A stretch of 64,000 nucleotides of DNA from a virus: positions 5,908 to 69,907 of the IMG/VR virus record IMGVR_UViG_3300027791_000015. One strand, written 5' to 3'. Below the pieces are notes generated by a model. That model did no database searches, had not been told where the DNA came from, and saw nothing but the letters and a program-made list of their open reading frames with translations. The first letter of the stretch is position 1; each line of letters opens with the position of its first letter. The position numbers were made by a program, and so were the translations under genes. Shown here one piece after another: positions 4,255 to 55,531 of the stretch.

Positions 4255-4524
4255 ATGACCAAATTTGATTATAAAAAGCCCACAGCGCAAATGCTGGGTA
4301 GATGGCAACCTTGGCATAAGGAGCATACTGAATTATTCAAGAAGGCGTTAAGTAAAACTGGACAGATTTGCATTATGTTAAGCCTTGCAGAACAAGACGA
4401 CAGTAATCCATTCGATCCACTCACAGTTACAAATAATATTAAGAAGGTTTTATTGAACGAAGGATATACGTTTAACAAACAATATACCATTATTGTTGTG
4501 CCAAATATTATAGATATCAGTTAG
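4255..4524 (+). pseudogene. Probably truncated nucleotidyltransferase-like protein
   Basis: QMLGRWQPWHKEH is a degenerate HxGH; the ORF stops at VPNIIDIS-TAG-GGA exactly where the convergent LRR gene ends, and lacks the usual C-terminal ISAT.IR motif. Confidence 0.5.
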
Positions 4525-7500
4525 GGAGTAGCAGGCTTGGCCTCTTTCCATGCACGAACTGAAAAACCAATCCGATCTCTAATTGCTGTACCGCCACCAG
4601 GGGTGGGATTAGTCTGATCTGCAGTTACCAAAGCATCACCATCAATACTCGCGATTGCCGATATATTACCACCTTGGACAAAACTGGGTGGGGACTTGCT
4701 GGGGTCATACCAGTAATAACGTATCCTCAAATTGTAGCCCGCCAAAGAACCGGTCGATTTAGCTGTAACTATCGCTCGACCGTATTGCTGACCACCGATT
4801 GCTTCGCTATTAATAAACTCAACTACTGTTTGGCTATCGTTGTAATTAATACTTGAATTGGTTGAATGTATTGGGGTGTTTATAGTAGAGATTATTGCAA
4901 TGGTATCATCATCATAAAATGGGGTAAAATCATGATTATTGTTTGTGCGAATAGAAGTAAATTCCACAGAATTATTTATATCAAATATTGGTATGTATAA
5001 ATTACTCGGAGTGTGATTTTTATAATAAGCATTGTTATTTGAATCCAAGGCTATATGAATACCCCATCCACTTTTAAAAGAATCATACGTAACTTTACCT
5101 GAATAGCTCGTCGCGCCTGTTGTTCTGATCGGATCGGTTTCAAAAATTGCTGAAGTAATTTGTACATTGCCTGGGTCATAATATTCATGTGTTGCAAAGG
5201 TTGGAGCGTCTCCTTCAAATCTAACAATTAACAGGTTGTCGCATCCAAAAAACACACGATATCCAATCGAGGTCACATTGTCGGGAATCGTGATATCGGT
5301 TAGTTTTGAGCATCTAAAGAATGCAAAATCTCCAATCGAGGTCACACCACTGCCAATCGTGATATCGGTTAGGCTAATGCATCTATTGAATGCGCTCTTC
5401 CCAATCGCTGTTACGCTGTCAGGAATGGTAATGCTAGGCAGGCTTGTGCAGGTATTGAATGCATCCCTTTTAATAGTGGTCAAAGTATTGGGTAGCGTGA
5501 CACTTACCAGATTTGAGCAGAATCTGAATGTCCCATCTTCAATCGAGGTCACGCTGTCTGGGATGGTAATACTGGTCAGGCCATCGCATTCCCAGAATGC
5601 ATTAGTTCCAATCGAGGTCACGCTGTCTGGGATGGTAATGCTGCTTAGGAATGTGCAGTTTTGGAATGCCGCCGTTCCAATCGCGGTCACGGCTAAGCCA
5701 TTATAAGTGCTGGGAATATCCAAGGTTCCGAAAGCAGTTTCTATACAATCGGCCACTCTATACGTTCCATCACCCCTTAAGGTAAACGTTAGGGAAGCTA
5801 CTGATGCTAGCGTTCTAACACCCAAACCTCCATACTTGCTTACACCATCTCCACCATTAGCTGGGGATATGTAGCTGCTAAACGCTCCAGATGGGACGCT
5901 AGCAAATTGTCCGGAAACATCGGGACTTTCTATACGGCCAAATGGACCCACTAGATAACTAGTAGTGCCCTCAAAGTCAATCTCTAAAACTGGAGCGGTT
6001 GTACCCTCAAAGTTAATTAAAGTGACACTATCTAAGTATCGTAAAGCAGCAAATCCAATATTAGTAACACTGCTTGGTATCGTAATGCTGGTCAGGCTAG
6101 AGCAGCCATAGAATGTCTCCTGTTCAATCAAGGTTACACCGTCGGGTATCGTAATGCTGGTTAGACTACTGCATCTAGTGAATGCCCCTTCTCCAATCGA
6201 TGTCACACTGTCGGGAATGGTAATACTGGTTAGGCTAGTGTTACCACCGAATGCAGTATTTCCAATCGAAGTCACGCTGTCTGGGAGGATAATGCTAGGC
6301 AGGCTAGAGCAGCCGTTGAATGCGCCTTGCCCAATAGAAGTCACGCTGTCGGGGATCGTAACGCTGGTCAGGGAAGTGCAGGAACTGAATACACCAATTG
6401 CAATCGAGGTCACGCTATCGGGTATGGTAATGCTGGTCAGGCTAGTGCAGTAACTGAAAGCAAAAGCGTCAATCGAGGTCACGCTGTCTGGGAGGATAAT
6501 GCTGCTTGCGCTAAAGCAGGATCTGAATGCACTAGTTCCAATTGAGGTCACGCCATCGGGGATCGTAATACTGGTCAGGCTAGTGCATAAAAAGAATGCA
6601 ATATCCCCAATCGAAGTCACGTTATCAGGAATAGTAACGTTGGTCAGGCTAGTGCAATTATGGAATGTAGCATTTTCAATCAAGGTCACGGCGTCGGGGA
6701 TATTAATGCTAGTCAGGCTAGAGCAGTTTGTGAATGCACTATTTCCAATCGAGGTCAAATTGCTACTACTACCAATCGTTATACTAGTTGCGTTTTTGCA
6801 GTTATAGAATGCCCGTATTCCAATCGAGGCCACGCTGTCTGGCAGCGTAATGCTGGTCAGACTTTGGCAATTTTCGAATGCATTATATCCAATCGAGGTC
6901 ACTGGTAATTCATCCGGTGATTGTGATGTATCTAGATGGGTACTGGGAACATCTATTGTTCCGCTAGCAAATGTCGGGCAATTAGTCACAGAATACTCAG
7001 TGCCATCATCATTCAAGGTAAAAGTAAGACCGACATTAGAAGCGTCGATTGATTCGTTTATGTCTAAACCTGCGTATGTTGTTCCATTTCCTGCATTTTG
7101 GTAACTTACTATTGTATTCAGTGGGACGGTAATTGTTGTGGTCAAAATGCCTTGCCAATCAGGGTATGGTATTTTGTTGGATAAGACGGGGGCAGATGTT
7201 GCTAGACAGGTTATGCTGCCTAGACTAGAACACTGGTCGAACGCTGAGATTCCAATCGAGGTCACGCTATCGGGAATGGTTATGCTGCTTAGGCTAGTGC
7301 AATTTTCGAATGCATTGTTTCCAATTGTTTCCAAGTCTTCGGAAAGATCAATATTAATTAGGCTAGAGCAGCTTTTGAATGCACTGCTTCCAATCTCGGT
7401 CACACCGTCGGGGAGGGTGATGTTGATTAGACTTGTGCAGCTTTGAAACGCATTATTGCCAATCGAGATCAATTCTTCGGAAAGGTTAATACTGATTAGG

Positions 7501-9506
7501 TTAATGCAGTTATTGAATGCGTAAGTTTCAATTGCGGTCACATTGTCGGGAATCGTAATACTATTTAGGCTTGTGCATAATCGGAATGACCCAGATTCAA
7601 TCGACGTCAAACTGTCGGGAAGGGAAACATCATCTAAGCTAACACATTCATTAAATAACCTACATGCAATCTCGGTCACACCTTCAGGGATTACAACTTC
7701 GGTTAATCCGGTCCTTTCGAATGCGGCTTCTCCAATTGAAGTCACACTGTCTGGAATTGTGACTCTTCTTAAGAAAAGGCAGTCACGGAATGCAGCATCC
7801 CCAATCGAGGTAATACTGTTAGGAATCACAACACTTGTTAATAAAATGCAGTTTTCGAATGTGCTATCTTCAATCGAACTTATATTTCCGATTATGTTTT
7901 CAATGCTTTCCAAGCTAATGCAGTTTTCGAACGCAAAGGCCCTAATCCTAGTTAAGCTGTTGGGAGTTACAATGCTTTCCAAACTAGAGCATCCTTGGAA
8001 AGTGTATAGTGGAATTGTTGTTATACCGTCCCCCATATCTACGGTTGTTAGAGCTATACAATCTTTGAATAAAGCTATCCCAATCGAGGTTACACTGTCT
8101 GGAATTACTACACTTGTTAGAGCTATGCAATCTTTGAATGCACAGCTTGCAATGGAGGTCACTGGTAATGTATCCTCTGATTGTAATGTGTCTAGGTGAG
8201 TACTTGGAATATCTAATGATCCATTGTATTCTGTTCCACAACTAGTTAAGACGTAAGCCGTACCATCTTCATTTATCTCAAATACTATGTCAGATCCTGA
8301 ATTAGAATAATTATTAGATACCGTCGCCTTTATAGTTGCAAAATATCTTGCATCGTCAGTTGATCCCTTGTCTGCATCTCCCCTAGATGGATATTGCACT
8401 ATACACTCTTCATTTACATTTGCGGAAGCTCCATATACCACTGGAAATCCATTGTTAAACTTATGATATACATTTTCCTCTGGATCATAAGCCAAAGGTG
8501 CCGAAGCTTCAGATGGGCTAAATATGGCAAATTTTTTCAATTCTCCAGTTACATTCAATTCTAATGTAGCTGCATCGGCAAACCAATTATTGCTTTGAGG
8601 AGCAGACAAAAGTCTAGGATCATAAGACCCAAACTCTGCAGGATCAAAATCTAAAGTCTGTTGAATTCTAGTTATAGGATTAAATGCTAAAATAGTAGTT
8701 CCGTATAATGGCGGAAAAACCGCCCATTCACCAACTGTAGTTGGGGGAGCAAATCTGGAAATAAATGCTGCATCATCAGCTTCACCAGGTGTCAGTTCTT
8801 TTTCAGGGATTTCTTCCGTGTGTACATATAAGTCATTTTGACTTGGATTATAACATATTACGTTCCCAGTGCGTCCAGCCATGACCGCCCAGTCCCCAAC
8901 AACAGATGGCCCTGCAAAGAAGTATGGGCCAAGTGTACCATTATCTGCACTTATCTGGGGCTGACCATGTGTAACTTGCTGAACAGATTGAAAATATGGA
9001 TTGACTGCAATAATTTGTGGCGAAAATGTTGGAGCAAAAACTGCCCAGTCTCCTACCGTCGCAGTACCTCCAAATGGATTAGGCGAGGATTGTGGATCGT
9101 AATCTCCAGTATAATTTAGTTCAAAGCCACCCTCATTTACTGGATCAAAACAATAAGCTATACGCTTAGAAACACTATAATCCACTATCTCAAATACTGC
9201 ATATTGTCCAACTCCAGCAACCCCACCAATTGATCTATCAAAACTTAAAGGGAATTGTTTAACAATATCATTTTGTGGATCGTAAAATACAATAGAGTCT
9301 GGACCGCCAGGAACATTCATCCCCATAGTAGCAAAATTACCAACAGCAGCTATTCCATAGGTAAATCCCCCAGTGACGGTTTGGGATGGTGTTTGATATA
9401 GTCTCTTATATGGGTTGTAAGAGGGTATAATAGAGGTTTCTTCTTCTACGTTATATGATGGTGGAAAAACCGCCCAATCTCCTATAGATGCACTTTTTTT
9501 TGACAT
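4521..9506 (-). CDS. Large adhesin/receptor-binding-like protein: N-terminal beta-propeller-like repeats, three BspA-type (LRR_5) arrays, unique C-terminal domain
   Basis: About 8 xxVGDWAVFxP...YNP repeats in the first ~390 aa; 14+13+7 units of [23 protein letters not shown], each array with its own N-cap and a C-terminal AP motif. Confidence 0.85.
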   Translation of the reverse strand: MSKKSASIGDWAVFPPSYNVEEETSIIPSYNPYKRLYQTPSQTVTGGFTYGIAAVGNFATMGMNVPGGPDSIVFYDPQNDIVKQFPLSFDRSIGGVAGVGQYAVFEIVDYSVSKRIAYCFDPVNEGGFELNYTGDYDPQSSPNPFGGTATVGDWAVFAPTFSPQIIAVNPYFQSVQQVTHGQPQISADNGTLGPYFFAGPSVVGDWAVMAGRTGNVICYNPSQNDLYVHTEEIPEKELTPGEADDAAFISRFAPPTTVGEWAVFPPLYGTTILAFNPITRIQQTLDFDPAEFGSYDPRLLSAPQSNNWFADAATLELNVTGELKKFAIFSPSEASAPLAYDPEENVYHKFNNGFPVVYGASANVNEECIVQYPSRGDADKGSTDDARYFATIKATVSNNYSNSGSDIVFEINEDGTAYVLTSCGTEYNGSLDIPSTHLDTLQSEDTLPVTSIASCAFKDCIALTSVVIPDSVTSIGIALFKDCIALTTVDMGDGITTIPLYTFQGCSSLESIVTPNSLTRIRAFAFENCISLESIENIIGNISSIEDSTFENCILLTSVVIPNSITSIGDAAFRDCLFLRRVTIPDSVTSIGEAAFERTGLTEVVIPEGVTEIACRLFNECVSLDDVSLPDSLTSIESGSFRLCTSLNSITIPDNVTAIETYAFNNCINLISINLSEELISIGNNAFQSCTSLINITLPDGVTEIGSSAFKSCSSLINIDLSEDLETIGNNAFENCTSLSSITIPDSVTSIGISAFDQCSSLGSITCLATSAPVLSNKIPYPDWQGILTTTITVPLNTIVSYQNAGNGTTYAGLDINESIDASNVGLTFTLNDDGTEYSVTNCPTFASGTIDVPSTHLDTSQSPDELPVTSIGYNAFENCQSLTSITLPDSVASIGIRAFYNCKNATSITIGSSSNLTSIGNSAFTNCSSLTSINIPDAVTLIENATFHNCTSLTNVTIPDNVTSIGDIAFFLCTSLTSITIPDGVTSIGTSAFRSCFSASSIILPDSVTSIDAFAFSYCTSLTSITIPDSVTSIAIGVFSSCTSLTSVTIPDSVTSIGQGAFNGCSSLPSIILPDSVTSIGNTAFGGNTSLTSITIPDSVTSIGEGAFTRCSSLTSITIPDGVTLIEQETFYGCSSLTSITIPSSVTNIGFAALRYLDSVTLINFEGTTAPVLEIDFEGTTSYLVGPFGRIESPDVSGQFASVPSGAFSSYISPANGGDGVSKYGGLGVRTLASVASLTFTLRGDGTYRVADCIETAFGTLDIPSTYNGLAVTAIGTAAFQNCTFLSSITIPDSVTSIGTNAFWECDGLTSITIPDSVTSIEDGTFRFCSNLVSVTLPNTLTTIKRDAFNTCTSLPSITIPDSVTAIGKSAFNRCISLTDITIGSGVTSIGDFAFFRCSKLTDITIPDNVTSIGYRVFFGCDNLLIVRFEGDAPTFATHEYYDPGNVQITSAIFETDPIRTTGATSYSGKVTYDSFKSGWGIHIALDSNNNAYYKNHTPSNLYIPIFDINNSVEFTSIRTNNNHDFTPFYDDDTIAIISTINTPIHSTNSSINYNDSQTVVEFINSEAIGGQQYGRAIVTAKSTGSLAGYNLRIRYYWYDPSKSPPSFVQGGNISAIASIDGDALVTADQTNPTPGGGTAIRDRIGFSVRAWKEAKPATP
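6900..6949. repeat. 50-bp exact direct repeat shared with 10549..10598
   Basis: cactggtaattcatccggtgattgtgatgtatctagatgggtactgggaa in two different LRR genes (PSTHLDTSQSPDELPV); diverged third copy near 8160..8209. Confidence 0.9.
7073..7110. repeat. 38-bp exact inverted repeat shared with 53835..53872
   Basis: agtaagttaccaaaatgcaggaaatggaacaacatacg ([12 protein letters not shown]) in LRR C-caps on opposite strands. Confidence 0.88.
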
Positions 9507-9564: not shown

Positions 9565-12500
9565 TTATGCATTCGGTAAACTATATGAGACACTTAAACC
9601 GTCATAATTTGTTCCATATCCAATTGCATTAGCTGGAACATTAATGGTTGTGGCTGATATCCTTTCAAAATTCGTCGCGTTGGGCTCGGCGATGCTTGTG
9701 TCTATTGGGTTTAATGTTGGGGCGTTTTTCGAAAGGAAGTTAACTGTGGCTAGATTATTACAATCCTTGAAAGTATAAGGTCCAATCGAGTTCACGCTGG
9801 CTGGGAACGTAATGGTAGTCAAGTTAGGCATGGTAGTGAAAGCACCCCGTCCAATTTCCCTTACGCCGTTGGGAATCGCAATAGTGTTGAAGGCAGTGTG
9901 GCCGAACGCACCCTCTTCAATCACTTTCACGCTATTGGGAATCGTAAAGCTGTTCAGGCTATCGCAGTGACCGAATGTACCCCTTGGAATTGAGGCAAGG
10001 TTGACGGGTAAGACAGCGCTAGTCAGGCTACTGCAGTCAAAGAATAACTCTGTTCCAAGTGTTTGTACACTATAAGGGATGAAAATACTGGTCAGGCTAC
10101 GGCAGTTGGCGAATGCCTGAGCTGCGATCAATTCCACGCTGTTAGGAATCGTAATACTACTTAGGCTAGTGCAGCCTCGAAATGCAAGAGAATAAATAAA
10201 TCTCACACTGTTAGGAATCGTAATGCTAGGCAGGCTAGAGCAGCCGTCGAATGACTGTTGCCCAATATGGGTCACTCCGTCGGGGATCGTAACGCTGGTC
10301 AGGGAAGTGCAGTTACCTAATAACATACCTGCAATCACTCTCACTCTGTCGCCGAAGGAAATGCTGCTTAGGCTTGTGCAGCGATTGAATGCACCAATGT
10401 CAATGAAGTTTACGAAGTCGTGGATCGTAATACTGGTCAGGCCAGAGCAGCCAAAGAATGCCCAACTCCCAATTGTGACCACGCTGTCTGGGATTATAAT
10501 GTTAGTTATGTTAGCGCAGTTTAAGAATGCAGAATTTCCAATCGCGACCACTGGTAATTCATCCGGTGATTGTGATGTATCTAGATGGGTACTGGGAATT
10601 TCTTTGTCACCTGAGGCGGATTTAAGACATTCGATTAGAGTATATTCATCGCCTCGATCGTTCAGTTGGAAGGTAAACTCTGGAGCAAGGGCATAAATTG
10701 TTCTGTCTATATTGAAAAAGTCTCTAATATTACAATTATCATCGCCAAGGAATTCAAATTCATCAATTCTATACTCTCCGATTGCTTCATCAAAGAGATA
10801 ACTTGGCCGATCTACATCTCCGAGATTTCTGTAAGGAAAGATATGAATATCAGAGATTTTATTTCCTACATATATCTCTTGATTTAACCCAATGCCGTCT
10901 ATAAATAAATGTGAATCTATAGGATTTGCAGGAATAGTAACATTTGTACCAAAGGATTTGTATATTAATTCGTCCTGCATACTAATATCCCATCCTCTAT
11001 TTAAATTTTCAATATCTATAGATGGATTGTAATAAGAAGATCCAGAATATCCAACACTACCTCCGCTAAACTCAATTGAATACGCATTTTCATCAACAAA
11101 GCCCAAGGGGTTGATTGTTTTCAACAAACTTCGATCAAAACATATACCAGAATTAAAAACTGCAGCACCAGTTAATAATTTTGGTCTTTCCGTTATATTT
11201 GGAACATAATTATTTTTATTTAAAGATTGGTCTTTCCACTCGGTAACAAAAACCTCTCCACTCTGTGCAAACTGTTTTACATTTTCAATATTAATATAGT
11301 TATTGTAAAAATAAATATCTTTACTTTCTCCATCACTAGCTCTTTGTACGGTCATAATGCACCCAGTAAAGCCTGGATTCACCCTAGAAAGAGATAATAG
11401 CAAATTAGCGACGTGAAAGTTATAAGGATAGTTGGTGTTATAGCCTGAAACCTCAATCGTAGGTAGGTCTTCGAAACATGCACCACTTTTAGAAGCTATG
11501 AAATCTCCAGTTAAAGTAAATCCAACGTCATCGCCAGTAGCTTCTGGAAGCTCTCCAAAAACTACTTCACCAACTGTATCCGCCATAAATAAATCTTCAA
11601 AACCAGAAATAGTCGTGTCATATATTTTTTCATATGTATATACACCTCTTTTAACAGCTGAAAGGAAATTCTGGTCGACTATACCAGTTTCTGTAATATA
11701 TCCAGCGATCCCGCTTCCCGTTATATCGTAATATCCAGTGATTTCTCCAGTATATGATATAAATTTTCTTACAATTTCTGTGGTGTATGCGCCTGGCTGA
11801 AGATTCACTTCTCCGTCTGGCAAAAAGTTGGCTGGATCAAAGAAAGATGCGCCGTAACCAGTTCTAATAATCCCAGTAAGCTGTTCTTCGTTAAAAGTTC
11901 CAGTGCCAATAATATTATTGACTATTCCTGTAATTACCTGCGATCCAAAAGGAACGAATCCAGAAAAACGAGTTGTTGACATTCCTGCTAAATTAATATC
12001 GGTATCAACGATACCACTTCCAAGTCCAGTTAAAAGCAGCTCATAATCATTAACAATCTGTCCAGTAGGTTCAGCATAACCAGTTAAAATTCCTGTTCCT
12101 ACGCCAGTTTGAATAACACCAGAAGCATCTAAGCCAGAAACCAAACCAGTCTTAGAAATAGAAACTGTATTTATTCCTGTAACTACAGCATCTTCGGTAT
12201 GAGAAAAATCTCTAAAAAAAGCCTTATCTCTAAATATGTCACCAGTCTGCCCAGAAAGATGAGACAGCGAAACACCAATGTTTGCACCATTAAAATCGGC
12301 GTAATAGCTAGTAACAGTAATAGATCCAGATAGTCCGTCGAAGTCTGCAACAAAAGGCTGTATGTTCAAATAAGAACTAGACCTTATAGTTGAAGGTAAA
12401 TTTCCTCCAGTTAGACTATAAGCATATTCTATTTGGCCAAAATTTGTATAAAATAATAAATCAGCTACTCCGCTTAAATTTTGTGACTGAGAAGGGGTCA

Positions 12501-13065
12501 AAAGAAATTTTGCTCCGCCTAACAGTTCATATCCCGTTACTTCTTGATAAGTGTCTATGGAAAAATCTACTGGAACATCTGAAGAAACTAGTTCTCCACT
12601 AAATACCGTAAAAGATAATGGTGGGTCAATATTATTTATAAAACCCGTTAAGGTTTCATCGGCTACTATTTTATCAGAACTTGTAGTAATTGAATACGAT
12701 GGGGTTTGTCCAAAAAAAGTAAATCCAATATTTTCTGGTTGCTCGTTAATAGCAAATACTCCAGATATTTTTCCATTCGGTAAGGTTTCTCCTACAACTT
12801 TTGGAACCCCGTTTATGAAATATTCGTGTTGGTTATTCTTTAAATTTCCAGAAATAATAAAACTACTATTATTAGAATAACTATCTACAAAGCCCGTGTT
12901 TCTGTCAAAAATTTTACCACCAGCAAATTTATAGTCTATGTTATAGTCTCCAGTTAAACCAACATGAATATCTGAAGATCTGGTCTTGGTTATAACGTTA
13001 AAAACATAACTATAATCACCAGTTTGATCTGCAATGCTTCTAAAATTTTTGCCGCTTAATATCAT
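9565..13065 (-). CDS. SG/TG-rich tail-tip/fibre protein with lectin-like domain and C-terminal BspA LRR array
   Basis: SG/TG-rich N-terminal half; LSLSRVNPGFTGCIMTVQRASDG...VFVTEWKDQS resembles the concanavalin-like (arabinofuranosidase-B-like) module of phage fibres; 12 LRR units at the C-terminus; TAATG-coupled to the upstream gene. Confidence 0.75.
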   Translation of the reverse strand: MILSGKNFRSIADQTGDYSYVFNVITKTRSSDIHVGLTGDYNIDYKFAGGKIFDRNTGFVDSYSNNSSFIISGNLKNNQHEYFINGVPKVVGETLPNGKISGVFAINEQPENIGFTFFGQTPSYSITTSSDKIVADETLTGFINNIDPPLSFTVFSGELVSSDVPVDFSIDTYQEVTGYELLGGAKFLLTPSQSQNLSGVADLLFYTNFGQIEYAYSLTGGNLPSTIRSSSYLNIQPFVADFDGLSGSITVTSYYADFNGANIGVSLSHLSGQTGDIFRDKAFFRDFSHTEDAVVTGINTVSISKTGLVSGLDASGVIQTGVGTGILTGYAEPTGQIVNDYELLLTGLGSGIVDTDINLAGMSTTRFSGFVPFGSQVITGIVNNIIGTGTFNEEQLTGIIRTGYGASFFDPANFLPDGEVNLQPGAYTTEIVRKFISYTGEITGYYDITGSGIAGYITETGIVDQNFLSAVKRGVYTYEKIYDTTISGFEDLFMADTVGEVVFGELPEATGDDVGFTLTGDFIASKSGACFEDLPTIEVSGYNTNYPYNFHVANLLLSLSRVNPGFTGCIMTVQRASDGESKDIYFYNNYINIENVKQFAQSGEVFVTEWKDQSLNKNNYVPNITERPKLLTGAAVFNSGICFDRSLLKTINPLGFVDENAYSIEFSGGSVGYSGSSYYNPSIDIENLNRGWDISMQDELIYKSFGTNVTIPANPIDSHLFIDGIGLNQEIYVGNKISDIHIFPYRNLGDVDRPSYLFDEAIGEYRIDEFEFLGDDNCNIRDFFNIDRTIYALAPEFTFQLNDRGDEYTLIECLKSASGDKEIPSTHLDTSQSPDELPVVAIGNSAFLNCANITNIIIPDSVVTIGSWAFFGCSGLTSITIHDFVNFIDIGAFNRCTSLSSISFGDRVRVIAGMLLGNCTSLTSVTIPDGVTHIGQQSFDGCSSLPSITIPNSVRFIYSLAFRGCTSLSSITIPNSVELIAAQAFANCRSLTSIFIPYSVQTLGTELFFDCSSLTSAVLPVNLASIPRGTFGHCDSLNSFTIPNSVKVIEEGAFGHTAFNTIAIPNGVREIGRGAFTTMPNLTTITFPASVNSIGPYTFKDCNNLATVNFLSKNAPTLNPIDTSIAEPNATNFERISATTINVPANAIGYGTNYDGLSVSYSLPNA

Positions 13066-40600: not shown

Positions 40601-40902
40601 CTATTAATAGCTGTAAGCTGCGATTCAACCTCTACGATTGTACTTACTAGCTTTGTGAAAGATCTTCTTACTCCCTCAATAACTGCAACAGACGCTCCGA
40701 ACGCAATAACACGGGCATTAGAAGCTTCTAGAGACTTAGTAAACTCATCAGCCTTCCCCGTAATACGACCCAAGGCCATCTGACCCTTTTTAGTGTCTAA
40801 ATTAACGCCTTTACGTTCGAGTTTGCGGACAGCGGTATTTACGTTCCGATTTAAATTCCGCGTATCCGCTCCTACTATAATGTCTAAGTCGCTTTGAGCC
40901 AT
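34681..40902 (-). CDS. Tail tape measure protein
   Basis: 2073 aa; TP901-type core (LFDIAKKTGQSFQTVAQTAQEFARQGL...FAVSSDDLAAALARSAAVAQGAGVSFNELLGVITA...GQGLKTAFTRL); Gly/Ala-rich hydrophobic segments; follows the tail tube. Confidence 0.93.
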   Translation of the reverse strand: MAQSDLDIIVGADTRNLNRNVNTAVRKLERKGVNLDTKKGQMALGRITGKADEFTKSLEASNARVIAFGASVAVIEGVRRSFTKLVSTIVEVESQLTAINSILGQSSGTISKFGNELFDIAKKTGQSFQTVAQTAQEFARQGLAVGETLKRTEDSLILVRLTTLKTNEAVAAITATLNGFAKEALTSTEVINKLRAVETSFAVSSDDLAAALARSAAVAQGAGVSFNELLGVITAMKQRTGLGGATLGQGLKTAFTRLSLPNRIAELKDLKVAIDDNSSGMEKLRQVSIAYKAAQDAGNQSLAAQIGQVAAGGFQISKLISAFQDLSSAYSVADSAALKSGEATNEANKANEEYNQTIGGISKQINSNIGKIFNSVGALGTGDAIKDLVGNINSILEAFQGNKLGASNAFIGLLNDAIIGAKNFGFLRDAAEGFAKVLSGPGLVAAAAVVKNLFANTLVQGGASLLSLTGLNKGQKNREQTQTATVALLKQGTEEEKKQFALATSQAQKEQVILGILERQLAIQKAQERSEVRFSEHLRKRGLIISGSAGGYNIKRSTKAIALNRGVSNNAGGTIPEAIIREQNAIGRNVGGATSKAQARVIEKFNYGRGKKGPAVVNSEELIIPNKSGDIVLNKEMMKGGMMNKSTFNYAAGSKREIAIKGKLENGLPLTVKDKEWLRKNAGTNPGGASSRNQNKILPATASAIIKRGGNSIYADNTIGSVRTNRFKERSQGVNPVGRPTAKEATKRNLINKGASGAFENLRSSSFIGPPRGSPTGADNFGEFARRQDSLDNADRIAQEREAKKRRALEAQKIREQELRREKALQRRDIEEDVRRQDQTSRFQGATPVNANTRFSQADRSMVLNDEYRSELKTQMGRRGMSMKDLNSTPEGKKLRQQVRTAVKTSVGNRFFEIDQQIAEQQVKGAQAAIDKQSRKGIGGRLGMPSFRGIEKRFEQDKTMTPMAKKMIKADISNRRFQRNQGIAQRGFLGSMVLSMSAPTIGRGAEFIAGKAGQDEDAAKRTGNIFEGAAQGASTGMSAGSLFGLPAMIAGTVGGAILGGVSSAGKKESPSDILAAQFDKLQETNANSANAIKSFLQSQSLISDLISSGDLDQQKILGIEDATNKTLRESGLTSEQIEKLTSATSNDRGDVAVELQRQLNSQTFEAKNRLDVTKILEDTTGSRVVQTDFSRNREKMIMNLARNGQGQGASGLSMLEGFDKLLSKMGMSSNSFIVEDDPFSDISEDQKKELKNINLSNVDFSAMDQAMKNSGDSIGEFSKSISEGLSSGRFGGIQKALMRLGIDIDDLPSAIRESSDALHEYGNIISESFKSGGGFQDMANRRSMTRTRVGLGINSAAFGRAQMENFNVQRSINNASSFRDQLSGPTEINRERSALLMSGSRFGLTGSGRDDNFNKIQALKVKEEEVLTGTNKNKIFDDTIGGIDELINPIVTSGTSFDEEKLTPVLAKMATGISSLEELNNIRTELKNIFSGTEGVETTLNSLVLSAAESLELEKIASNDRRENINISNNQEAILRKLRTDQSVRSQQGSEMGMSVSEVMGRDDPTIAGKVRAQGEYTSTKGVKKVLTNEAGEIREGFVAALEEKDEDGKFKIDRFTQASMLSEFDRNIKNTGTEVDENGQFKFNKYDVAGRANEAIRRMGEGQYGSRMETAGFGVLTNEITSRGKTNDALIASTPSSVREAFTERKDVVNRDAGLSGLVVPQNKEQARLRDQYIKEYSRIQNNNNLGRYDGPKSFHTKSGMETTERHQIDQSAIFNNPFKNAYSERGMFNHGTEMYDQIFNSSVLESGDFDIKSGMPLDFNKNNARLGYGAASMAPVGVDLDDPRENYMFSQSQGKSDNAAFRSMMGLPNLIEGGDANAYQYGTDSAVKDTKPAPEETTNPLIEELKKTNTALSALAESKNNTDFLTEILRSLEQGKSDKTITGDEMGTAIKAIDDFKSSDKTQGDRGNLEAVIQKLVENQEITFSELLEQIKQDKQNSNVEQLADLNQNIATFITTLNEGVESKVETFNNFTLSFDGVEENFANTEAMIESMRTRLEGLEASLRGDVVAPA

Positions 40903-45592: not shown

Positions 45593-45624
45593 TTTATCCA
45601 CCTCATTCCTCGTAAATAGACAAT

Positions 45625-45650: not shown

Positions 45651-45674
45651 TTTTGTAAATACTTTGGATATCGA

Positions 45675-46826: not shown

Positions 46827-46846
46827 ATAAATAATTCCGTTTCTGA

Positions 46847-47419: not shown

Positions 47420-47440
47420 AATTTTAGTTAGTTAGATGTT

Positions 47441-47468
47441 ATTACAATAATTGTTTTACGATGTGAAA
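47441..47468 (-). promoter_or_regulatory. Putative phage late promoter
   Basis: TTTCAC-N16-TGTAAT driving decoration + capsid genes. Confidence 0.8.
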
Positions 47469-49337: not shown

Positions 49338-49356
49338 TACTAGGCTATCTCTAAAG

Positions 49357-49384
49357 ATTACAATTTTTGTTTGCTTTAGTGAAA
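49357..49384 (-). promoter_or_regulatory. Putative phage late promoter
   Basis: TTTCAC-N16-TGTAAT, directly after the portal stop. Confidence 0.8.
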
Positions 49385-51905: not shown

Positions 51906-53069
51906 GTGGCAGACAAAACAATAACAGAACTTACAGAAATTACTTCAGCTAATTCGACAAATGACTTTTTACCAGTTGTTGATACTAGCGCCGTAGAAAC
52001 TAAGAGGATCATTTTATCTAATTTGCCTATGAGCAACGAAGAGATTGGTCGATCCTACCCCTTTACCACGGACTTTCAAACAGGCAATGAGAGGACACGG
52101 AATGTATCCTCAATTGCATCAAGCGAATTCTTTAATAATACCAATTTAAGCTCTATTTATATTGGAAGCAACGTGACCTTGATTGCATTGTCTGCATTCA
52201 AAAATTGCACAAACCTTAGCAACGTTACAATCCCCGATAGCGTGAGATCGATTAACTCTTTTGCATTCGACAATTGCACAAGCCTAACCAGTATTACGAT
52301 CCCTGAAAGAGGGGTCTCTATTGGAACTAGCGCATTCAAAGGCTGCTCTGGCCTGACCAGTATTACAATTCCCGATGGTGTGACCTCGATTGAAGGCAAT
52401 ACATTTTTTGAATGCACCGGTCTTACCAGTATTACCATTTCCGACAGCGTTACCGCGATTGGAAGTAGTGCATTCTATGGCTGTTCTGGCGTAAGCAGTA
52501 TCACGATTCCCGATAGTGTAACCTCGATTGGGGCCAATGCATTCCGAGACTGCACTAGCCTGACTAGCTTTATTATTGGCAACAGCGTGACCTCGATTGA
52601 AGGTAGTACATTCAAAGACTGCACTGGCCTTGCCAGCATAACCATTCCCGATAGCGTTACCACGATTTCAAGTAATGCATTCAATGGCTGCACTAGCCTA
52701 GCCAGCGTTACGATTCCTGATAGTGTAACCTCGATTGGCGGTGATGCATTCCGAAACTGCTCTAGCCTTACCAGCATTACGATCGGCAATGGCTTGACTT
52801 CGATTGGACCTGTTGCATTCTTTGGCTGCACTGGCCTGACAAGCGTCACCATTCCCAACAGTATGACTTCAATTGGGATTTTTGCATTCAGTCAATGCAC
52901 TAGCCTAGCCACAATCACCTCTCTTGCTACAGATGCCCCAAGTGTTGAAACTACCTCGTTTAATAATGTTACGGCTACCACAATTACTGTCCCAGCTGGG
53001 TCTACACAGAGTTACAAAGATGAAGGAGATGGAACAACATACGGGGGCTTAGAAATCATAGAGGCTTAA
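51906..53069 (+). CDS. BspA-type LRR protein (12 units) with shared N-terminal anchor motif
   Basis: GTG start, ADKTITELTEITSA...DFLPVVDTS..ETKRI, then LRR_5 repeats and a YGGL C-cap. Confidence 0.88.
   Translation: MADKTITELTEITSANSTNDFLPVVDTSAVETKRIILSNLPMSNEEIGRSYPFTTDFQTGNERTRNVSSIASSEFFNNTNLSSIYIGSNVTLIALSAFKNCTNLSNVTIPDSVRSINSFAFDNCTSLTSITIPERGVSIGTSAFKGCSGLTSITIPDGVTSIEGNTFFECTGLTSITISDSVTAIGSSAFYGCSGVSSITIPDSVTSIGANAFRDCTSLTSFIIGNSVTSIEGSTFKDCTGLASITIPDSVTTISSNAFNGCTSLASVTIPDSVTSIGGDAFRNCSSLTSITIGNGLTSIGPVAFFGCTGLTSVTIPNSMTSIGIFAFSQCTSLATITSLATDAPSVETTSFNNVTATTITVPAGSTQSYKDEGDGTTYGGLEIIEA
52470..52544 (+). repeat. 75-bp direct repeat with 54860..54934 (2 synonymous mismatches)
   Basis: gcattctatggctg(t/c)tctggcgtaagcagtatcacgattcccgatagtgtaacctcgattggggc(c/t)aatgcattc. 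Confidence 0.88.
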
Positions 53070-53073
53070 TATT

Positions 53074-53907
53074 ATGTCAGATAAAAAAATATCAGAACTT
53101 ACACAAATCATTTCAGCTAATCCGATAACTGACGTTTTGCCGATTGTGGATATCAGTTTAAATCAAACCGATAAAATAACTATAGGCAAGCTTCCAATGA
53201 GTGCTTCTGCTATAGCACGGTCTTATCCCTACACTATAGACTTTATTTCAGGGACAGAACAGACGCGAGATCTGACACTTATTGATACTTCAAGCGGGTA
53301 TCAAAGCAATTCGAATTTAGAGCTTATTTACATTGGCAGTCATGTGACCTCGATTGGGGACAGTGCATTCTATAACTCCAATACCCTTACTAGCATTACC
53401 ATCCCCAATAGCGTGACCTCGATTGGGAGTCTTGCATTTAGTAACTGCTCTAGTCTAACAAGTGTTACAATTCTTGACGGTGTAGGCGCGACTTCGATTG
53501 GAACTAGCGCATTCGGTGGTAACGCTAATCTAACCAGCGTTACGATCCCAAACAGTGTGACCTCGATTGGAGAGCAAGCATTTTTTAGCTGCGGCCTAGC
53601 CAGCATTACGATCGGCAATGGCGTGACTTCGATTGGAGTTAGTGCATTTTTTGACTGCACAAGCCTGGCTAGCGTTACCATCGGCAACAGCGTTACCACG
53701 ATTTCAAGTAATGCATTCAATGACTGCACTAGCCTAGCCACAATCACCTCTCTTGCTGAATCTGCCCCAAGTGTTGAAACTAACTCGTTTAATAATGTTG
53801 CGGCTACCACAATTACTGTCCCAGTTGGAGCAACAGTAAGTTACCAAAATGCAGGAAATGGAACAACATACGGAGGTTTAATAATCGCAGAACTCGAAGA
53901 GGCTTAA
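53074..53907 (+). CDS. BspA-type LRR protein (7 units) with shared N-terminal anchor motif
   Basis: [10 protein letters not shown]...DVLPIVDIS; C-cap nearly identical in DNA to the previous gene. Confidence 0.88.
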
Positions 53908-53911
53908 TATT

Positions 53912-55531
53912 ATGGCAGACAAAAAAATATCAGAACTTACAGAACTTACTTCGGCTAATGCGGTAACTGACGTTTTACCGATTGTGGATATCAGTTCTAA
54001 CGAAACTAAGAAAATTAGCCTAGCTGATTTACCAATTAGCGATGTCGCCATCGCCCAATCTATGCCCCACACTACCGACTCTCAGTTAGGGGTGGTGCAG
54101 ACAAGAAATCTGACAACTATTGATAATTCAAGCGGGTATTCAAATAATACCAATTTAGAATCTATCTATATAGGGAATAACGTTACATCGATTGGAAGTA
54201 GTGCATTCTATTACTGCTCTAACCTGACCAGCGTTGTCATACCCAACAGTGTGACTTCGATTGGAGATAATACTTTCATTGGCTGCTTTGACCTGACCAG
54301 TATTAACATCCCAGACAGCGTGACCGCGATTGGATCTCAGGCATACATGTATTGCCAAAGCCTGACCAGCATTAAGATCCCCGACAGCGTTACCACGATT
54401 GGGAGTAGTGCATTCTATTACTGTACTAACGCAACAAGCATTACGATCGGCGACAGTGTGACCTCGATTGGAAGTGATGCATTCTCTGCCTGCAATAGTA
54501 TTACTAGCGTTGATCTACCCGACAGCCTTACTTCGATTGATAGCAGTTTGTTTACAACATGCGCTAACCTCACAAGTATTAATGTATCCAGTGAAAATGC
54601 ATTATTTTCATCAATTGACGGTGTTCTATTTAGTAAGTCTGCAGATAATTTAGTTATTTTTCCATATGGTAAAAGTAGTGCATATTCTATTCCCAATAGC
54701 GTGACTTCGATTGGAAATCGGGCATTCAGATTCTGTAATAACCTGACCAGCATTACGATTCCCAGCAGCGTGACCTCGATTGGAGATTCGGCATTCCGAA
54801 GCTGCTCTGGCCTTACCAGCATTACCATCCCCAATAGCGTGACCTCGATTGGAGATTTTGCATTCTATGGCTGCTCTGGCGTAAGCAGTATCACGATTCC
54901 CGATAGTGTAACCTCGATTGGGGCTAATGCATTCGCTTTCTGCTCAGGCTCAACCAGCATAACCATTCCCAATAGCGTGACTTCGATTGGAGAGCGTGTA
55001 TTCCTTGGCTGCACTAGCCTAACCAGCATTACTATACCCGACAGCGTGACCTCGATTGGAGTGAGTGCATTCCAAAGATGCACTAGCGTAACCGATATTA
55101 CCATCGGCGACGGTGTGACCTCGATTGGGGATTTTGCATTCAATCAATGCACCAGCCTAACCAGTATTACCATCGGCGACGGTGTGACCTCGATTGGTCA
55201 GACCGCCATCTCTCAAACTGGCCTGACTAGTCTTACCATCCCCGATAACGTTACCTCGACTGTATATCAAGCATTTGCCTTTAACACTAGCTTAACAACC
55301 GTTACAATTGGCAATGGTTTGGGCAATATTGCTGGCTTTGCATTCAGAAATTGTACGTCGCTATCAACACTCAGTTGCACTGCTACGGATGCTCCAACGC
55401 TTGGAACTACTCCATTTGATGGCTGTACTAGCTTAAGCGAAATTCAAGTTCCAAATTCAGCAGTAGCGGATTATCAAGCAAAAGGAGAGGGAAATAACAA
55501 ATATGGCGGCCTAGAAATCGTAGGCGTTTAA
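53912..55531 (+). CDS. BspA-type LRR protein (17 units) with shared N-terminal anchor motif
   Basis: [14 protein letters not shown]...; LRR_5 repeats with the typical [12 protein letters not shown]...L..FP.GK insert. Confidence 0.88.

What the first reader, a model, noticed from the sequence alone, without database searches (positions are those of the whole stretch)
4521..55531. Phage-encoded variable LRR repertoire: ~82 BspA-type units in 7 arrays that appear to exchange DNA (VLR-like receptor diversification)
Seen: five genes (4521-9506, 9565-13065, 51906-53069, 53074-53907, 53912-55531) carry 34+12+12+7+17 LRR units by hand count. They are built on a recurring nucleotide scaffold (GTGACCTCGATTGG...GCATTC...TGCACTAGCCT), while residues at the IGxxAFxxC positions vary almost unit by unit. 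Blocks are shared between different genes: 50 bp exact (6900/10549), 38 bp exact (7073/53835), 75 bp with 2 silent changes (52470/54860), 52 bp with 1 change (52653/53689). Known: BspA/LRR_5 solenoids bind proteins via variable exposed positions, and lamprey VLRs diversify by copying LRR cassettes. Inference: these are virion-displayed binders diversified by homology-driven cassette swapping or gene conversion, with no RT or invertase visible. This would be a host-range diversification route distinct from DGRs and shufflons.
Basis: partly seen in the sequence, partly recalled or inferred. Interest (0 to 1): 0.88.

Follow-up and report, generated by a model that had tools for sequence, protein, structure and literature searches.

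The report
Marine phage with five LRR tail fibres
A large marine phage carries five genes built from about 80 leucine-rich repeat units that most likely serve as its host-binding fibres, and natural strains differ sharply at four exposed positions per repeat in one stretch of one gene, which looks like ordinary fibre evolution rather than a programmed shuffling system.

Summary
Five ORFs carry about 80 BspA/TpLRR-type (Pfam LRR_5) 23-residue units. Four positions per unit (IGxxAFxxC) are hypervariable. All four cited shared blocks exist, and exact blocks exceed a column-wise codon-shuffle null.

The genes sit in an incomplete (about 47%) marine tailed-phage contig. C, D, E and a non-LRR 884-aa ORF share a tail-fibre-type N-terminal anchor upstream of a tail-fibre chaperone, so a role as fibres is likely but inferred.

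Intragenomic cassette swapping is at most occasional. Units are old (mean 60%, maximum 87% nt identity). The 31-36-nt scaffold blocks are also shared with bacterial LRR genes. One cited block reflects tandem paralogy plus a 3-unit indel.

Array length is stable: all 7 full-length variants of protein A are 1661 aa. A tract of about 1.4 kb in A is strongly hypervariable between otherwise ~99% identical alleles (33/48 variable positions differ), mostly on the same unit backbones. None of 23 changed array-2 units carries a signature found elsewhere in this genome.

No RT, resolvase or integrase was found. The arrays use codons rare in the phage but typical of marine Opitutales/Puniceicoccaceae LRR genes, which suggests horizontal transfer and a host lead.

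The parts
4521..9506 (-). Gene A, 1661 aa. It has an N-terminal domain (aa 1-440, 8187-9506) with a recurring GDWAVF motif. Three LRR_5 modules follow: array 1 (7062-8186), array 2 (6012-7061) and array 3 (5217-5786). A 231-aa C-terminal domain of unknown family closes the protein.
   Evidence: Pfam LRR_5 E 1.4e-228. 34 units. N-caps and C-caps located. Eight proteins share the N-terminal domain (47-63% identity for the seven others) but have lengths of 1086-2862 aa, and one has no precomputed Pfam family.
5445..6818 (-). Population-level hypervariable tract of gene A (aa 897-1354). It covers units 2-12 of array 2, the linker, and the first units of array 3.
   Evidence: P0125 and P0126 differ at 102 sites, 91 of them in aa 897-1354 and 11 in the other 1203 aa. 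Variable positions of array 2 differ at 33/48, against 37/302 at its other positions. Against the window's allele, variable positions changed at 25/48 and 37/48, and scaffold positions at 15/228 and 32/228 (Fisher 1.4e-12 and 1.9e-17).
9565..13065 (-). Gene B, 1166 aa. An N-terminal region of about 800 aa of unknown family is followed by one C-terminal LRR_5 module (about 9568-10668).
   Evidence: Pfam LRR_5 E 3.4e-76. About 12 units. The N-terminal part is collinear with relative G001 at 74.5% nt identity, while the array is not.
6900..6949 (-). 50-bp exact block shared with 10549-10598. It encodes the N-cap PSTHLDTSQSPDELPV of A array 2 and of the B array.
   Evidence: Flanks are 41% and 50% identical.
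7073..7110 (-). 38-bp exact block, inverted with respect to 53835-53872. It encodes the C-cap [12 protein letters not shown] of A array 1 and of D.
   Evidence: translations.
51906..53069 (+). Gene C, 387 aa: N-terminal fibre anchor, 12 LRR_5 units, C-cap.
   Evidence: PDB sequence match to 4fs7 at 2.6e-90 and to TpLRR 6mlx at 4e-25.
52469..52544 (+). 76-bp tract with 2 silent differences from 54859-54934 in gene E. The 50-bp exact core is 52485-52534. The tract includes variable codons.
   Evidence: Flanks are 64% and 68% identical.
53074..53907 (+). Gene D, 277 aa: anchor, 6-7 units, C-cap. Relative to C it lacks exactly three units (207 nt) before the C-cap.
   Evidence: The matched blocks 52653/53689 and 52896/53725 lie 243 nt apart in C and 36 nt apart in D. 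AlphaFold2 model: mean pLDDT 83.8, solenoid confident from residue ~50, residues 1-41 below 50.
53912..55531 (+). Gene E, 539 aa: anchor, about 17 units with one irregular insertion, C-cap.
55559..58213 (+). 884-aa ORF with the same N-terminal anchor but a non-LRR distal part. It is probably a fourth alternative fibre.
   Evidence: 58% identity to E over 36 N-terminal residues, E 3e-6. No Pfam family. No blastn alignment of 300 nt or more to G001.
59057..59452 (+). Tail fibre assembly chaperone closing the C-D-E fibre operon.
   Evidence: PHROG 4912 (tail fiber assembly) 9.3e-18 and PHROG 8716 5.2e-16. Pfam Phage_tail_APC hit among the ORF set.
34681..40902 (-). Tape-measure protein, 2073 aa. 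It marks the element as a long-tailed phage.
   Evidence: Pfam PhageMin_Tail 9.4e-17.

Best explanation
The five genes encode receptor-binding fibres of a large marine tailed phage whose distal domains are BspA/TpLRR-type solenoids.

C, D, E and a non-LRR 884-aa protein share one short N-terminal anchor. They are probably alternative fibres mounted on the same site of the tail. A and B carry their own conserved N-terminal domains with LRR modules at the distal end.

Target binding probably uses the ladder of four variable residues per unit (IGxxAFxxC) that follows the second short strand of each repeat.

The repertoire evolves by the usual means of phage fibre genes:
- tandem gene duplication (C, D, E);
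- gain and loss of whole units and modules by unequal recombination;
- occasional short ectopic conversion between arrays (tracts of 38-76 bp);
- exchange of divergent alleles between co-circulating strains;
- strong diversifying selection or relaxed constraint at the four exposed positions.

The LRR module itself was probably acquired from, or is still exchanged with, LRR genes of marine Opitutales/Puniceicoccaceae (Verrucomicrobiota). These are therefore the best host candidates.

Shown: family membership, fold, gene context, block statistics, allele pattern, codon pattern. Inferred: presence in the virion, binding surface, selection, direction of transfer, host.
For: Family and fold:
- Pfam LRR_5 hits and PDB sequence matches to 4fs7, 4gt6, 4h09 and 6mlx.
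- The model of D matches TpLRR 6mlx chains at rmsd 2.2-3.8 A over 139-175 columns.

Fibre role:
- About 60 other viral contigs encode the same ~40-aa N-terminus fused to unrelated distal parts.
- Of 6 such proteins scanned, 4 hit tail fibre, tail spike or virion-structural PHROGs.
- The 884-aa neighbour shares the anchor, and a fibre chaperone lies downstream.
- Eight proteins share A's N-terminal domain (47-63% identity for the seven others) but are 1086-2862 aa long, and one has no precomputed Pfam family.

Ordinary array dynamics:
- Relative G001 is syntenic at 70-87% nt identity, but its arrays align only at 64-71% and in all registers. Its unit counts differ: 21 against 13 for B and 30 against 34 for A.
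- D equals C minus three units.

Short exchanges: the 76-bp and 50-bp tracts sit in flanks that are 41-68% identical, and exact blocks exceed the shuffle null.

Stability:
- 7 of 7 full-length A variants are 1661 aa, 2 of 2 B variants are 1166 aa, and 2 of 2 D variants are 277 aa.
- Contigs at phage depth from 4 runs of 4 studies match pieces of C-E with 0-1 differences.
- G002 and G003 differ at 32 of 37,630 sites, none of them in the 945-bp LRR part.

Allelic hypervariation on retained backbones.

Foreign codon scaffold:
- V-T-S at unit columns 10-12 is GTG (43/59), ACC (39/55), TCG (40/45). In the phage's other ORFs these codons make up 8%, 14% and 6%.
- Synonymous codon identity of G0 units to marine Verrucomicrobiota units is 0.55-0.63. 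It is 0.605 within G0, 0.51 to G001, 0.45 to G002 and 0.44-0.50 to gut bacteria.
- In a scan of 185,579 species genomes, the stretches with three or more matches came from marine Opitutaceae and Puniceicoccaceae. Their arrays align to the phage arrays at 66-74% over 224-1122 nt.
Against: - Nothing here shows that the proteins are in the virion.
- The N-terminal parts of A and B and the anchor alone match no PHROG.
- The phage capsid-like protein was not found in the four Verrucomicrobiota genomes, nor in 401 genomes of their order, so the host link rests on LRR nucleotide similarity only.
- The bacterial loci were picked by a pattern taken from the phage, which inflates their similarity at those columns.
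- Without nucleotide sequences of the divergent alleles I cannot separate three causes of the hypervariable tract: positive selection, import of an old allele, or targeted mutagenesis. The 12% divergence at non-variable positions of the tract, against about 1% elsewhere, fits allele import, but the 69% at variable positions is very high.
- The contig is about 47% complete and the best relative about 77%, so an RT or another diversifying enzyme could lie in the missing part.
Confidence: 0.6

Rival explanations
1. One reading: the seven arrays form an intragenomic cassette library. Homology-driven gene conversion between arrays is the main, ongoing way the phage changes receptor specificity, as in VLR assembly or segmental conversion in antigenic variation.
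For: - Exact blocks exceed the shuffle null.
- Sharp 76-bp and 50-bp tracts, one of which includes variable codons.
- Units do not cluster by gene: identity within genes is 0.56-0.65 and between genes 0.56-0.64.
- Same-residue codon identity is higher within each genome than between genomes.
- Relatives G001 and G002 also hold exact intragenomic blocks of 31-77 bp among their LRR genes.
- A few allele units moved towards the family consensus, for example units 977 and 1000.
Against: - No two units exceed 87% nt identity, and the mean is 60%.
- Scaffold blocks of 30-36 nt are also shared with unrelated bacteria.
- 0 of 23 changed array-2 units in the natural alleles carry a signature present elsewhere in the genome.
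- 19 of 28 changed units in the hypervariable tract remain closest to the unit at the same position.
- Lengths do not vary among close variants.
- Pieces of C-E are identical in 4 runs.
- All five genes are complete ORFs, and no LRR segment lies outside them.
Confidence: 0.1
2. A dedicated mutagenic system targets the four variable codons per unit in the hypervariable tract of gene A. This would be a retroelement-like or otherwise unknown mechanism encoded in the missing half of the genome.
For: - Changes are extremely focused. 33/48 variable positions differ between two alleles whose other regions are about 99% identical, and the unit backbones are retained.
- 15 of 48 positions carry three different residues in three alleles.
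- The genome is incomplete.
Against: - No RT was found in 4 related contigs, including one 77% complete.
- No template-like near-copy exists. The best intragenomic matches of array 2 are 71-75% identical.
- The tract of about 1.4 kb is far longer than the variable regions I recall for diversity-generating retroelements (recalled, not from a call).
- Non-variable positions and the linker are also 12% diverged. This fits an older imported allele better than site-specific mutagenesis.
- Arrays 1 and 3 have the same unit design but are nearly invariant.
Confidence: 0.07
3. The LRR proteins are not host-receptor binders of the tail. They might instead be decoration or adhesion proteins that bind particles, mucus or other cells. 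Alternatively they could be intracellular or surface proteins expressed in the infected cell that mimic the host's own BspA-like proteins.
For: - The LRR arrays resemble host-type surface LRR genes down to codon choice.
- A and B have no recognisable fibre domains.
- As I recall, bacterial BspA-type proteins are adhesins (not from a call).
- The phage also carries surface-sugar genes that could remodel the host envelope.
Against: - C, D and E carry an N-terminus that elsewhere heads proteins with tail fibre and tail spike domains.
- They lie in one operon with a fibre chaperone.
- The pattern of a conserved N-terminal domain with a variable distal part, plus strain-level hypervariation, is what fibres typically show.
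Confidence: 0.15

Closest known systems
BspA / TpLRR-type leucine-rich repeat surface proteins (Pfam LRR_5, PF13306; solved examples 4fs7, 4gt6, 4h09, 6mlx)
   Same: The 23-residue unit LxSIxIPxSVxxIGxxAFxxC is the same, with Pfam scores far above the cut-off. The fold matches solved members. The N-cap and C-cap modules also occur in a marine Opitutaceae gene.
   Different: Here the domain is fused to phage fibre anchors and lies in a phage structural region. There are five paralogous genes in one virus. No signal peptide or cell-wall anchor was looked for.
gp38 adhesins and distal tail fibre genes of T-even phages: hypervariable segments between conserved glycine-rich motifs, with recombination in or near the conserved motifs
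   Same: Variable recognition residues are embedded in a conserved repeated scaffold. The adhesin has an N-terminal attachment part and a C-terminal specificity part. Exchange at conserved motifs gives chimeric adhesins (PMC3157838, abstract and passages read). This is what the locus works like.
   Different: There is no sequence or fold relationship. The scaffold here is an LRR solenoid of up to 34 units rather than a glycine-rich core with four loops. Several paralogous fibres coexist. Recombination between strains is inferred here, not shown by crosses.
Lamprey variable lymphocyte receptors (recalled, not from a call)
   Same: An LRR solenoid serves as a variable recognition scaffold, with variability focused on a few positions per repeat.
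   Different: There is no incomplete gene flanked by silent cassettes. All arrays are complete ORFs. Length is invariant among close variants. The Pfam hits listed include a dCTP-deaminase-like domain but no family named as an AID/APOBEC-type deaminase.
Diversity-generating retroelements of phages (Bordetella BPP-1 type; Bacteroides phage example PMC6199706, abstract seen in the search listing)
   Same: Both give site-focused hypervariation of a phage receptor-binding protein.
   Different: No RT was found and there is no template repeat. The target fold is LRR, and the tract is about 1.4 kb.
Bacterial LRR gene families that grow by adjacent concatenation of units (lgr genes of Protochlamydia, PMC2216083, abstract read) and the Trichomonas BspA-like family (PMC2843621, search listing only)
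   Same: Both are multi-gene LRR families with variable unit number. Both have a G+C content above the genome average. Both grow by serial duplication.
   Different: Those families are cellular and not virion proteins. The unit types differ for the lgr genes (28-mers).
Uncharacterised LRR proteins annotated in metagenomic phages and giant viruses
   Same: 44 of 50,697 phage records hold a tblastn match to gene E. 16 predicted viral structures match the model of D at E 0.001 or better, mostly named 'leucine-rich repeat protein' and from uncultured Siphoviridae, Myoviridae or Mimiviridae.
   Different: None of these is a close relative (all below 60% identity). None found in my searches has been studied as a fibre or at population level.

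Membership tests
Pfam LRR_5 / BspA-TpLRR leucine-rich repeats | Profile match above the curated cut-off (27.7 bits) | tested here: met
   746, 254, 328, 143 and 376 bits for A-E.
Pfam LRR_5 / BspA-TpLRR leucine-rich repeats | 23-residue unit with the conserved pattern L.SI.IP.SV..IG..AF..C | tested here: met
   Column consensus and entropies of 69 canonical units.
Pfam LRR_5 / BspA-TpLRR leucine-rich repeats | Solenoid fold like solved members | tested here: met
   Model pLDDT 83.8. Foldseek probability 1.0 to 4gt6, 4fd0, 4fs7 and 6mlx, with rmsd 2.2-3.8 A to 6mlx chains.
Phage tail fibre / receptor-binding protein | N-terminal attachment module shared with known fibre or spike proteins, with a variable distal part | tested here: met
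   The anchor recurs in about 60 viral contigs with unrelated distal parts. 4 of 6 scanned have fibre, spike or structural PHROGs. The anchor is shared by four adjacent ORFs. The anchor alone hits no PHROG.
Phage tail fibre / receptor-binding protein | Location in the tail module, next to a fibre assembly chaperone | tested here: met
   The chaperone at 59057-59452 closes the C-D-E-884aa operon. A and B lie in a separate operon with two large unknown ORFs.
Phage tail fibre / receptor-binding protein | Presence in the virion and binding to a host receptor | not testable with these tools
   Needs proteomics, microscopy or adsorption assays.
VLR-like cassette assembly | An incomplete expressed gene flanked by non-coding or silent LRR cassettes | tested here: not met
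   All LRR sequence lies in five complete ORFs. 229 of 230 repeat pairs map inside them.
VLR-like cassette assembly | Mosaic arrays and variable unit number within a population | tested here: not met
   7 of 7 full-length A variants, 2 of 2 B and 2 of 2 D have identical lengths. Changed units mostly keep their position-specific backbone. The limit is that assembled proteins and contigs drop rare variants.
VLR-like cassette assembly | AID/APOBEC-type cytidine deaminase | tested here: inconclusive
   The Pfam hits listed for 41 other ORFs include a dCTP-deaminase-like domain and a dUTPase, and no family named as an AID/APOBEC-type deaminase. The family was not searched for on its own, and the genome is incomplete.
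Diversity-generating retroelement | Reverse transcriptase | tested here: not met
   PF00078 absent from G000, G001, G004 and G005, with controls positive. The contigs are 47-77% complete.
Diversity-generating retroelement | Template repeat nearly identical to the variable region, differing at adenines | tested here: not met
   The best intragenomic matches of array 2 are 71-75% identical. Adenine bias could not be tested because no allele DNA was available.
Shufflon / invertible fibre segments | Site-specific serine or tyrosine recombinase | tested here: not met
   PF00239 and PF00589 absent from G000 and G001, with controls positive.
T-even gp38-type modular adhesin | Homology to gp38 (glycine-rich motifs) | not tested
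   No gp38 sequence was compared. Pfam listed no gp38-type family. The likeness is one of logic only.

The most novel reading that the evidence does not exclude
The phage may run an LRR-based hypervariable receptor system. A tract of about 1.4 kb in fibre A would be diversified in place, at the four exposed residues of each repeat. The cause could be a recombination-coupled or dedicated mutagenic process, or repeated exchange with the large LRR gene pool of its Verrucomicrobiota hosts and of co-infecting phages. The conserved nucleotide scaffold and the 50-bp N-cap block would act as homology anchors. This would be a third route to phage host-range diversity beside retroelements and invertases, and a viral parallel to LRR-based immune recognition.
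Probability: 0.15. Interest if true: 0.85.

Novelty: new variant of a known kind. Interest (0 to 1): 0.6.

Why it matters
My searches found no study of a leucine-rich repeat solenoid as a phage receptor-binding domain, although such ORFs are scattered through metagenomic phages.

This phage lineage devotes five genes and about 80 units to the fold. It mounts several of them on a shared anchor. In nature it shows a hypervariable tract whose changes fall on four positions per repeat. That gives a clean and predictable map of likely specificity residues on a regular scaffold. Such a map is useful for understanding host-range evolution in the sea and for engineering binders.

The codon evidence also points to gene flow between phage fibres and host surface adhesins. 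It offers a host lead, marine Opitutales/Puniceicoccaceae, a group for which I recall few described phages (recalled; no search was made for this).

Tried and rejected
- The phage collection gave no DNA match for 41001-51364 and no protein match for the capsid-like ORF.
- PHROGs gave nothing for ten large neighbouring ORFs except one family of unknown function.
- PHROGs gave nothing for the anchor alone, the N-terminal parts of A and B, or the C-terminal domain of A.
- PDB sequence searches of the 1109-, 682-, 2406- and 884-aa ORFs found nothing.
- No tRNA genes were found.
- A three-copy complex prediction of D returned 'no answer'. It says nothing either way about trimer formation.
- I tried to obtain DNA of the divergent A alleles. 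The search for related loci with P0126 in viral contigs found nothing. The alignment A3 in metagenome contigs gave 212 pattern matches, none confirmed. Codon-level tests on the hypervariable tract could therefore not be run.
- Host link by the capsid-like protein: not found in 4 Verrucomicrobiota genomes or in 401 genomes of their order.
- tblastn of 'non-LRR' phage ORFs against the Verrucomicrobiota loci returned hits from only five queries. These were an LRR gene that escaped my filter and antisense ORFs inside arrays. No real shared non-LRR gene was seen.
- In the laid contigs, the many 'joints' and high-depth pieces over the arrays (depth 100-790 against 8-15 for the phage) come from other LRR genes at 85% likeness, with sides near 30 nt. 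I do not read them as mosaics. Parts of the arrays without a phage-depth contig are not evidence of variation.
- Several contig ends coincide with the exact repeats of 31 nt or more (52514/52534, 53421, 54847).
- A DGR reading was considered and set aside: no RT, no template copy.
- The paper PMC12244429 on TpLRR structure is not held. I saw it only as a reference in PMC12992979.
- Supplements were not opened. Those of the SPLASH preprint (10.1101/2024.01.18.576133, passages read) may bear on LRR_5-linked variation in gut data.

Full report
**What the window is.** The window is bases 5908-69907 of a single 69,907-bp virus contig without terminal repeats. CheckV rates it about 47% complete.
- It encodes a 2073-aa tape-measure protein (PhageMin_Tail).
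- It also has a tail assembly chaperone, a cement protein, a dUTPase and a dCTP-deaminase-like protein.
- A block of nucleotide-sugar and glycosyltransferase genes is present as well.
- It has no match in 50,697 deposited phage records, either by megablast of 10 kb or by tblastn of the capsid-like ORF.
- Its DNA is held by 24 listed seawater or marine metagenome runs from 17 studies.
- The closest relatives are IMG/VR contigs G001 (141,669 bp, about 77% complete), G002 and G003. They are syntenic with it at 70-87% nt identity.

**The observation.** All five ORFs are LRR_5 proteins.
- A unit HMM finds 83 stretches: A 34, B 13, C 12, D 6, E 18, a few of them fragments.
- A holds three modules, each made of an N-cap (F.LN.DGT.Y...C......G.LDIPST...), units and a C-cap (...AP.L....TI.VP....Y....G..YGGL). 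B, C, D and E hold one each, and E's is interrupted.
- In 69 canonical units, positions 15, 16, 19 and 20 carry 3.3-3.7 bits of entropy, against 2.7 or less elsewhere. 68 of 69 four-residue signatures are distinct.
- The four cited blocks exist.
- 229 of 230 self-similarity pairs lie in the five genes.
- When codons are shuffled within each unit column (500 times), exact matches of 24 nt or more drop from 14 observed to a mean of 1.07 (maximum 7). The longest match drops from 50 to at most 36.

The blocks are therefore more than scaffold conservation with column-specific codon use.

**What the blocks mean.** They are not all of one kind.
- *Scaffold blocks.* The 31-35-nt blocks in the scaffold (for example 53392/54818 and 5540/5609) are matched by equally long exact matches to bacterial LRR genes: 36 nt in a Puniceicoccaceae single-cell genome, 35 nt in a Puniceicoccaceae MAG, and 32 nt even in a gut Bacteroidaceae MAG. 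They say nothing about exchange inside the phage.
- *C/D blocks.* The blocks 52653/53689 and 52896/53725 lie 243 nt apart in C and 36 nt apart in D. D is thus a tandem paralog of C lacking exactly three units. C-cap plus next anchor aligns to the following gene at 76.6% over 745 nt.
- *True mosaics.* Three tracts do look like short ectopic exchanges. The first is 76 bp with 2 silent changes between C and E, includes variable codons, and has flanks 64% and 68% identical. The second is 50 bp exact in the N-caps of A array 2 and B, with flanks 41% and 50% identical. The third is 38 bp exact in the C-caps of A array 1 and D.

Set against this, units are old. Mean pairwise nt identity is 0.60 and the maximum is 0.87. 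Identity within a gene (0.56-0.65) is no higher than between genes (0.56-0.64). Exchange between arrays is real but rare and short.

**Are they fibres?**
- C, D and E begin with M.DKKISELT...SAN..D.LPIVD.S..ETKKI. The 884-aa ORF that follows E begins the same way (58% identity over 36 residues, E 3e-6) and then continues into a non-LRR protein.
- About 60 other viral contigs encode this N-terminus fused to unrelated distal parts of 122-1187 aa, counting only complete ORFs. Of six scanned, four hit tail fibre, tail spike or virion-structural PHROGs.
- The operon ends with a tail fibre assembly chaperone.
- The N-terminal 440 residues of A recur in eight proteins (47-63% identity for the seven others). 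Their lengths are 1661, 1575, 1086, 1466, 1600, 2862, 1290 and 1557 aa, and one has no precomputed Pfam family.
- The AlphaFold2 model of D is confident from residue ~50 onwards and disordered in the anchor. It matches TpLRR and the other solved LRR_5 proteins.

I conclude that these are alternative receptor-binding fibres. This is inferred from architecture and is not shown.

**Comparison with relatives.**
- The non-LRR parts of A and B align collinearly with G001 at 71-75% nt. The arrays align only at 64-71% and in every register.
- Unit counts differ: 21 against 13 for B, 30 against 34 for A, and 12, 8, 8+ and 17+ for the small fibres.
- Contigs G001, G002 and G003 all end inside LRR genes.
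- The two ends of G001 are 84% identical over 676 nt, and in the translated overlap many of the differences fall in the IGxxAFxx stretches. I cannot tell whether these are tandem paralogs or two alleles at an assembly break.

**Population evidence.**
- In four runs from four studies, contigs at the phage's own depth match pieces of C, D and E with 0-1 differences. The pieces are 52124-52686, 52979-53421, 53396-53718 and 54026-54847.
- G002 and G003, from different samples, differ at 32 of 37,630 sites, none of them in the 945-bp LRR part.
- The 90% protein cluster of A has eight members. Seven are full length and all are 1661 aa. B has two members of 1166 aa with one difference. D has two members of 277 aa with 16 scattered differences.

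Unit number is therefore stable among close strains. The variants of A are nonetheless not alike.
- Four variants differ from the window at 1-6 sites. P0125 differs at 98 sites and P0126 at 146.
- Against the window, variable positions of array 2 changed at 25/48 (P0125) and 37/48 (P0126). Scaffold positions changed at 15/228 and 32/228 (Fisher 1.4e-12 and 1.9e-17). In array 1 the figures are 3/36 and 4/171.
- P0125 and P0126 differ from each other at 102 sites. 91 of them lie in aa 897-1354 and only 11 in the other 1203 residues.
- By region, P0125 and P0126 differ as follows: variable positions of array 2, 33/48; other positions of array 2, 37/302; linker, 9/75; N-terminal domain, 5/440; C-terminal domain, 1/231.
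- 15 of 48 variable positions carry three different residues in the three allele classes.
- None of the 23 changed array-2 units carries a four-residue signature found in any other unit of this genome.
- 19 of 28 changed units in the tract remain closest, at non-variable positions, to the unit at the same place. The exceptions mostly moved towards the family consensus.

This is allelic hypervariation on a fixed array, not shuffling of the genome's own cassettes. The tenfold rise at non-variable positions and in the linker suggests that old, divergent alleles of the tract are exchanged between nearly isogenic strains. The still higher rate at the four x positions suggests diversifying selection or absent constraint there. 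I could not obtain allele DNA, so these alternatives stay open.

**Enzymes.** No reverse transcriptase was found in G000, G001, G004 or G005. No resolvase or integrase was found in G000 or G001. Controls were positive in each search. All of these contigs are incomplete.

**A foreign nucleotide scaffold.**
- The arrays have G+C of 0.42-0.44 against 0.369 for the contig.
- At unit columns 10-12 (V-T-S) the codons are GTG 43/59, ACC 39/55 and TCG 40/45. In the phage's other ORFs these codons make up 8%, 14% and 6% of their residues, and usage is the same in G001 and G002.
- Codon identity at scaffold positions with the same residue is 0.605 within G0, 0.488 within G001 and 0.703 within G002. Between genomes it is 0.51, 0.448 and 0.359. 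G002 uses a different scaffold (GTC ACC AGC ATC GGG).
- I scanned one genome for each of 185,579 species with GTGACCTCGATTGG-N7-GCATTC. This gave 58 stretches. Those with three or more matches are marine Verrucomicrobiota: an Opitutaceae MAG (11 and 5 matches) and a Puniceicoccaceae single-cell genome (5, 3 and 3). Further Puniceicoccaceae genomes hold one or two matches per stretch, as do many gut Clostridia and Bacteroidales, three of which hold two.
- The marine Verrucomicrobiota arrays align to the phage arrays at 66-74% over 224-1122 nt, for example 74.4% over 969 nt. That is as close as the phage's own paralogs are to one another.
- Their units share synonymous codons with G0 units at 0.55-0.63, against 0.44-0.50 for gut bacteria picked by the same pattern.
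- One Opitutaceae gene also has an N-cap like those of A.

I read this as horizontal transfer of the LRR module between this phage lineage and marine Opitutales/Puniceicoccaceae, and as a host lead. The direction of transfer and the host are inferred. The loci were chosen by a phage-derived pattern, and no other phage gene was found in those genomes.

**Comparison with what is known.**
- The proteins are members of the LRR_5 / BspA-TpLRR family.
- In the way it works, the locus is closest to the T-even gp38 and distal fibre system. There, hypervariable segments sit between conserved motifs, and recombination in or near those motifs makes chimeric adhesins (PMC3157838, abstract and passages read).
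- It does not meet the defining features of VLR assembly, of retroelement diversification or of invertase shufflons (see the membership table).
- LRR ORFs are catalogued in metagenomic phages and giant viruses. My full-text searches found no study of an LRR phage fibre or of its population variation. Those searches cover only the held open-access library.

**Verdict.** This is a new variant of a known kind: a multi-fibre phage whose receptor-binding domains are LRR solenoids. It has stable arrays and occasional short exchanges between paralogs. It has a hypervariable allelic tract focused on four residues per repeat, and a codon signature that ties it to Verrucomicrobiota LRR genes.

Noticed in passing
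window 356-4524 and L001 388-5948: A run of + strand genes for surface-sugar metabolism. It includes glycosyltransferases (GT9 heptosyltransferase-like, GT1), an NAD-dependent epimerase/GDP-mannose dehydratase-like protein, a heptose phosphate adenylyltransferase-like cytidylyltransferase and a sulfotransferase. These may be auxiliary genes that remodel the host envelope.
   Followed up: partly
window 55559-58213: The 884-aa anchor-bearing ORF has no blastn alignment of 300 nt or more to relative G001. In the laid contigs it shows many substitutions and small indels from much more abundant relatives, at depth 200-740 against about 15. It may be another fast-evolving fibre.
   Followed up: partly
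L121 4100-5700 (Opitutaceae MAG contig): This bacterial LRR_5 array has the phage-like scaffold, but the reading frame changes about every unit and repeat spacing is 68, 69 or 70 nt. It is either a decayed pseudogene or indel errors of the assembly.
   Followed up: partly
G001 (L101 10-685 and L108, contig 140997-141669): Both ends of the 141.7-kb relative lie in LRR fibre genes and are 84% identical over 676 nt, with many of the differences in the IGxxAFxx stretches. They may be tandem paralogs or two alleles at the break of a circular assembly. G002 and G003 also end in LRR genes.
   Followed up: partly
window 8187-9506 (-), gene A aa 1-440: The N-terminal domain of A repeats a motif (I/V)G(D/E)WAV(F/M) four times at about 50-145-residue spacing. 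That would fit a repeated beta-structure such as a propeller. It has no Pfam or PHROG match.
   Followed up: no
window 5236-5706, 6499-6807, 7138-7446, 7543-8199, 10223-10696, 52475-52858, 53370-53810, 54418-54834: Long ORFs of 102-218 aa lie antisense within the LRR arrays. In my tblastn they behaved as repeat-driven artefacts that match the antisense strand of other LRR genes. They should not be annotated as genes without evidence.
   Followed up: partly
window 13065-18484 (-) and 18779-25999 (+): Three very large ORFs of 1109, 682 and 2406 aa lie next to A and B. They have no Pfam, PHROG or PDB sequence match. They are conserved with G001-G003 at about 74% nt.
   Followed up: partly
window 62076-62144: A 27-bp direct repeat (62076/62118) of a GCTTC-rich simple sequence lies inside the overlapping ORFs 61402-62289(+) and 61416-62723(-). 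It is the only exact repeat of 24 nt or more outside the LRR genes.
   Followed up: no
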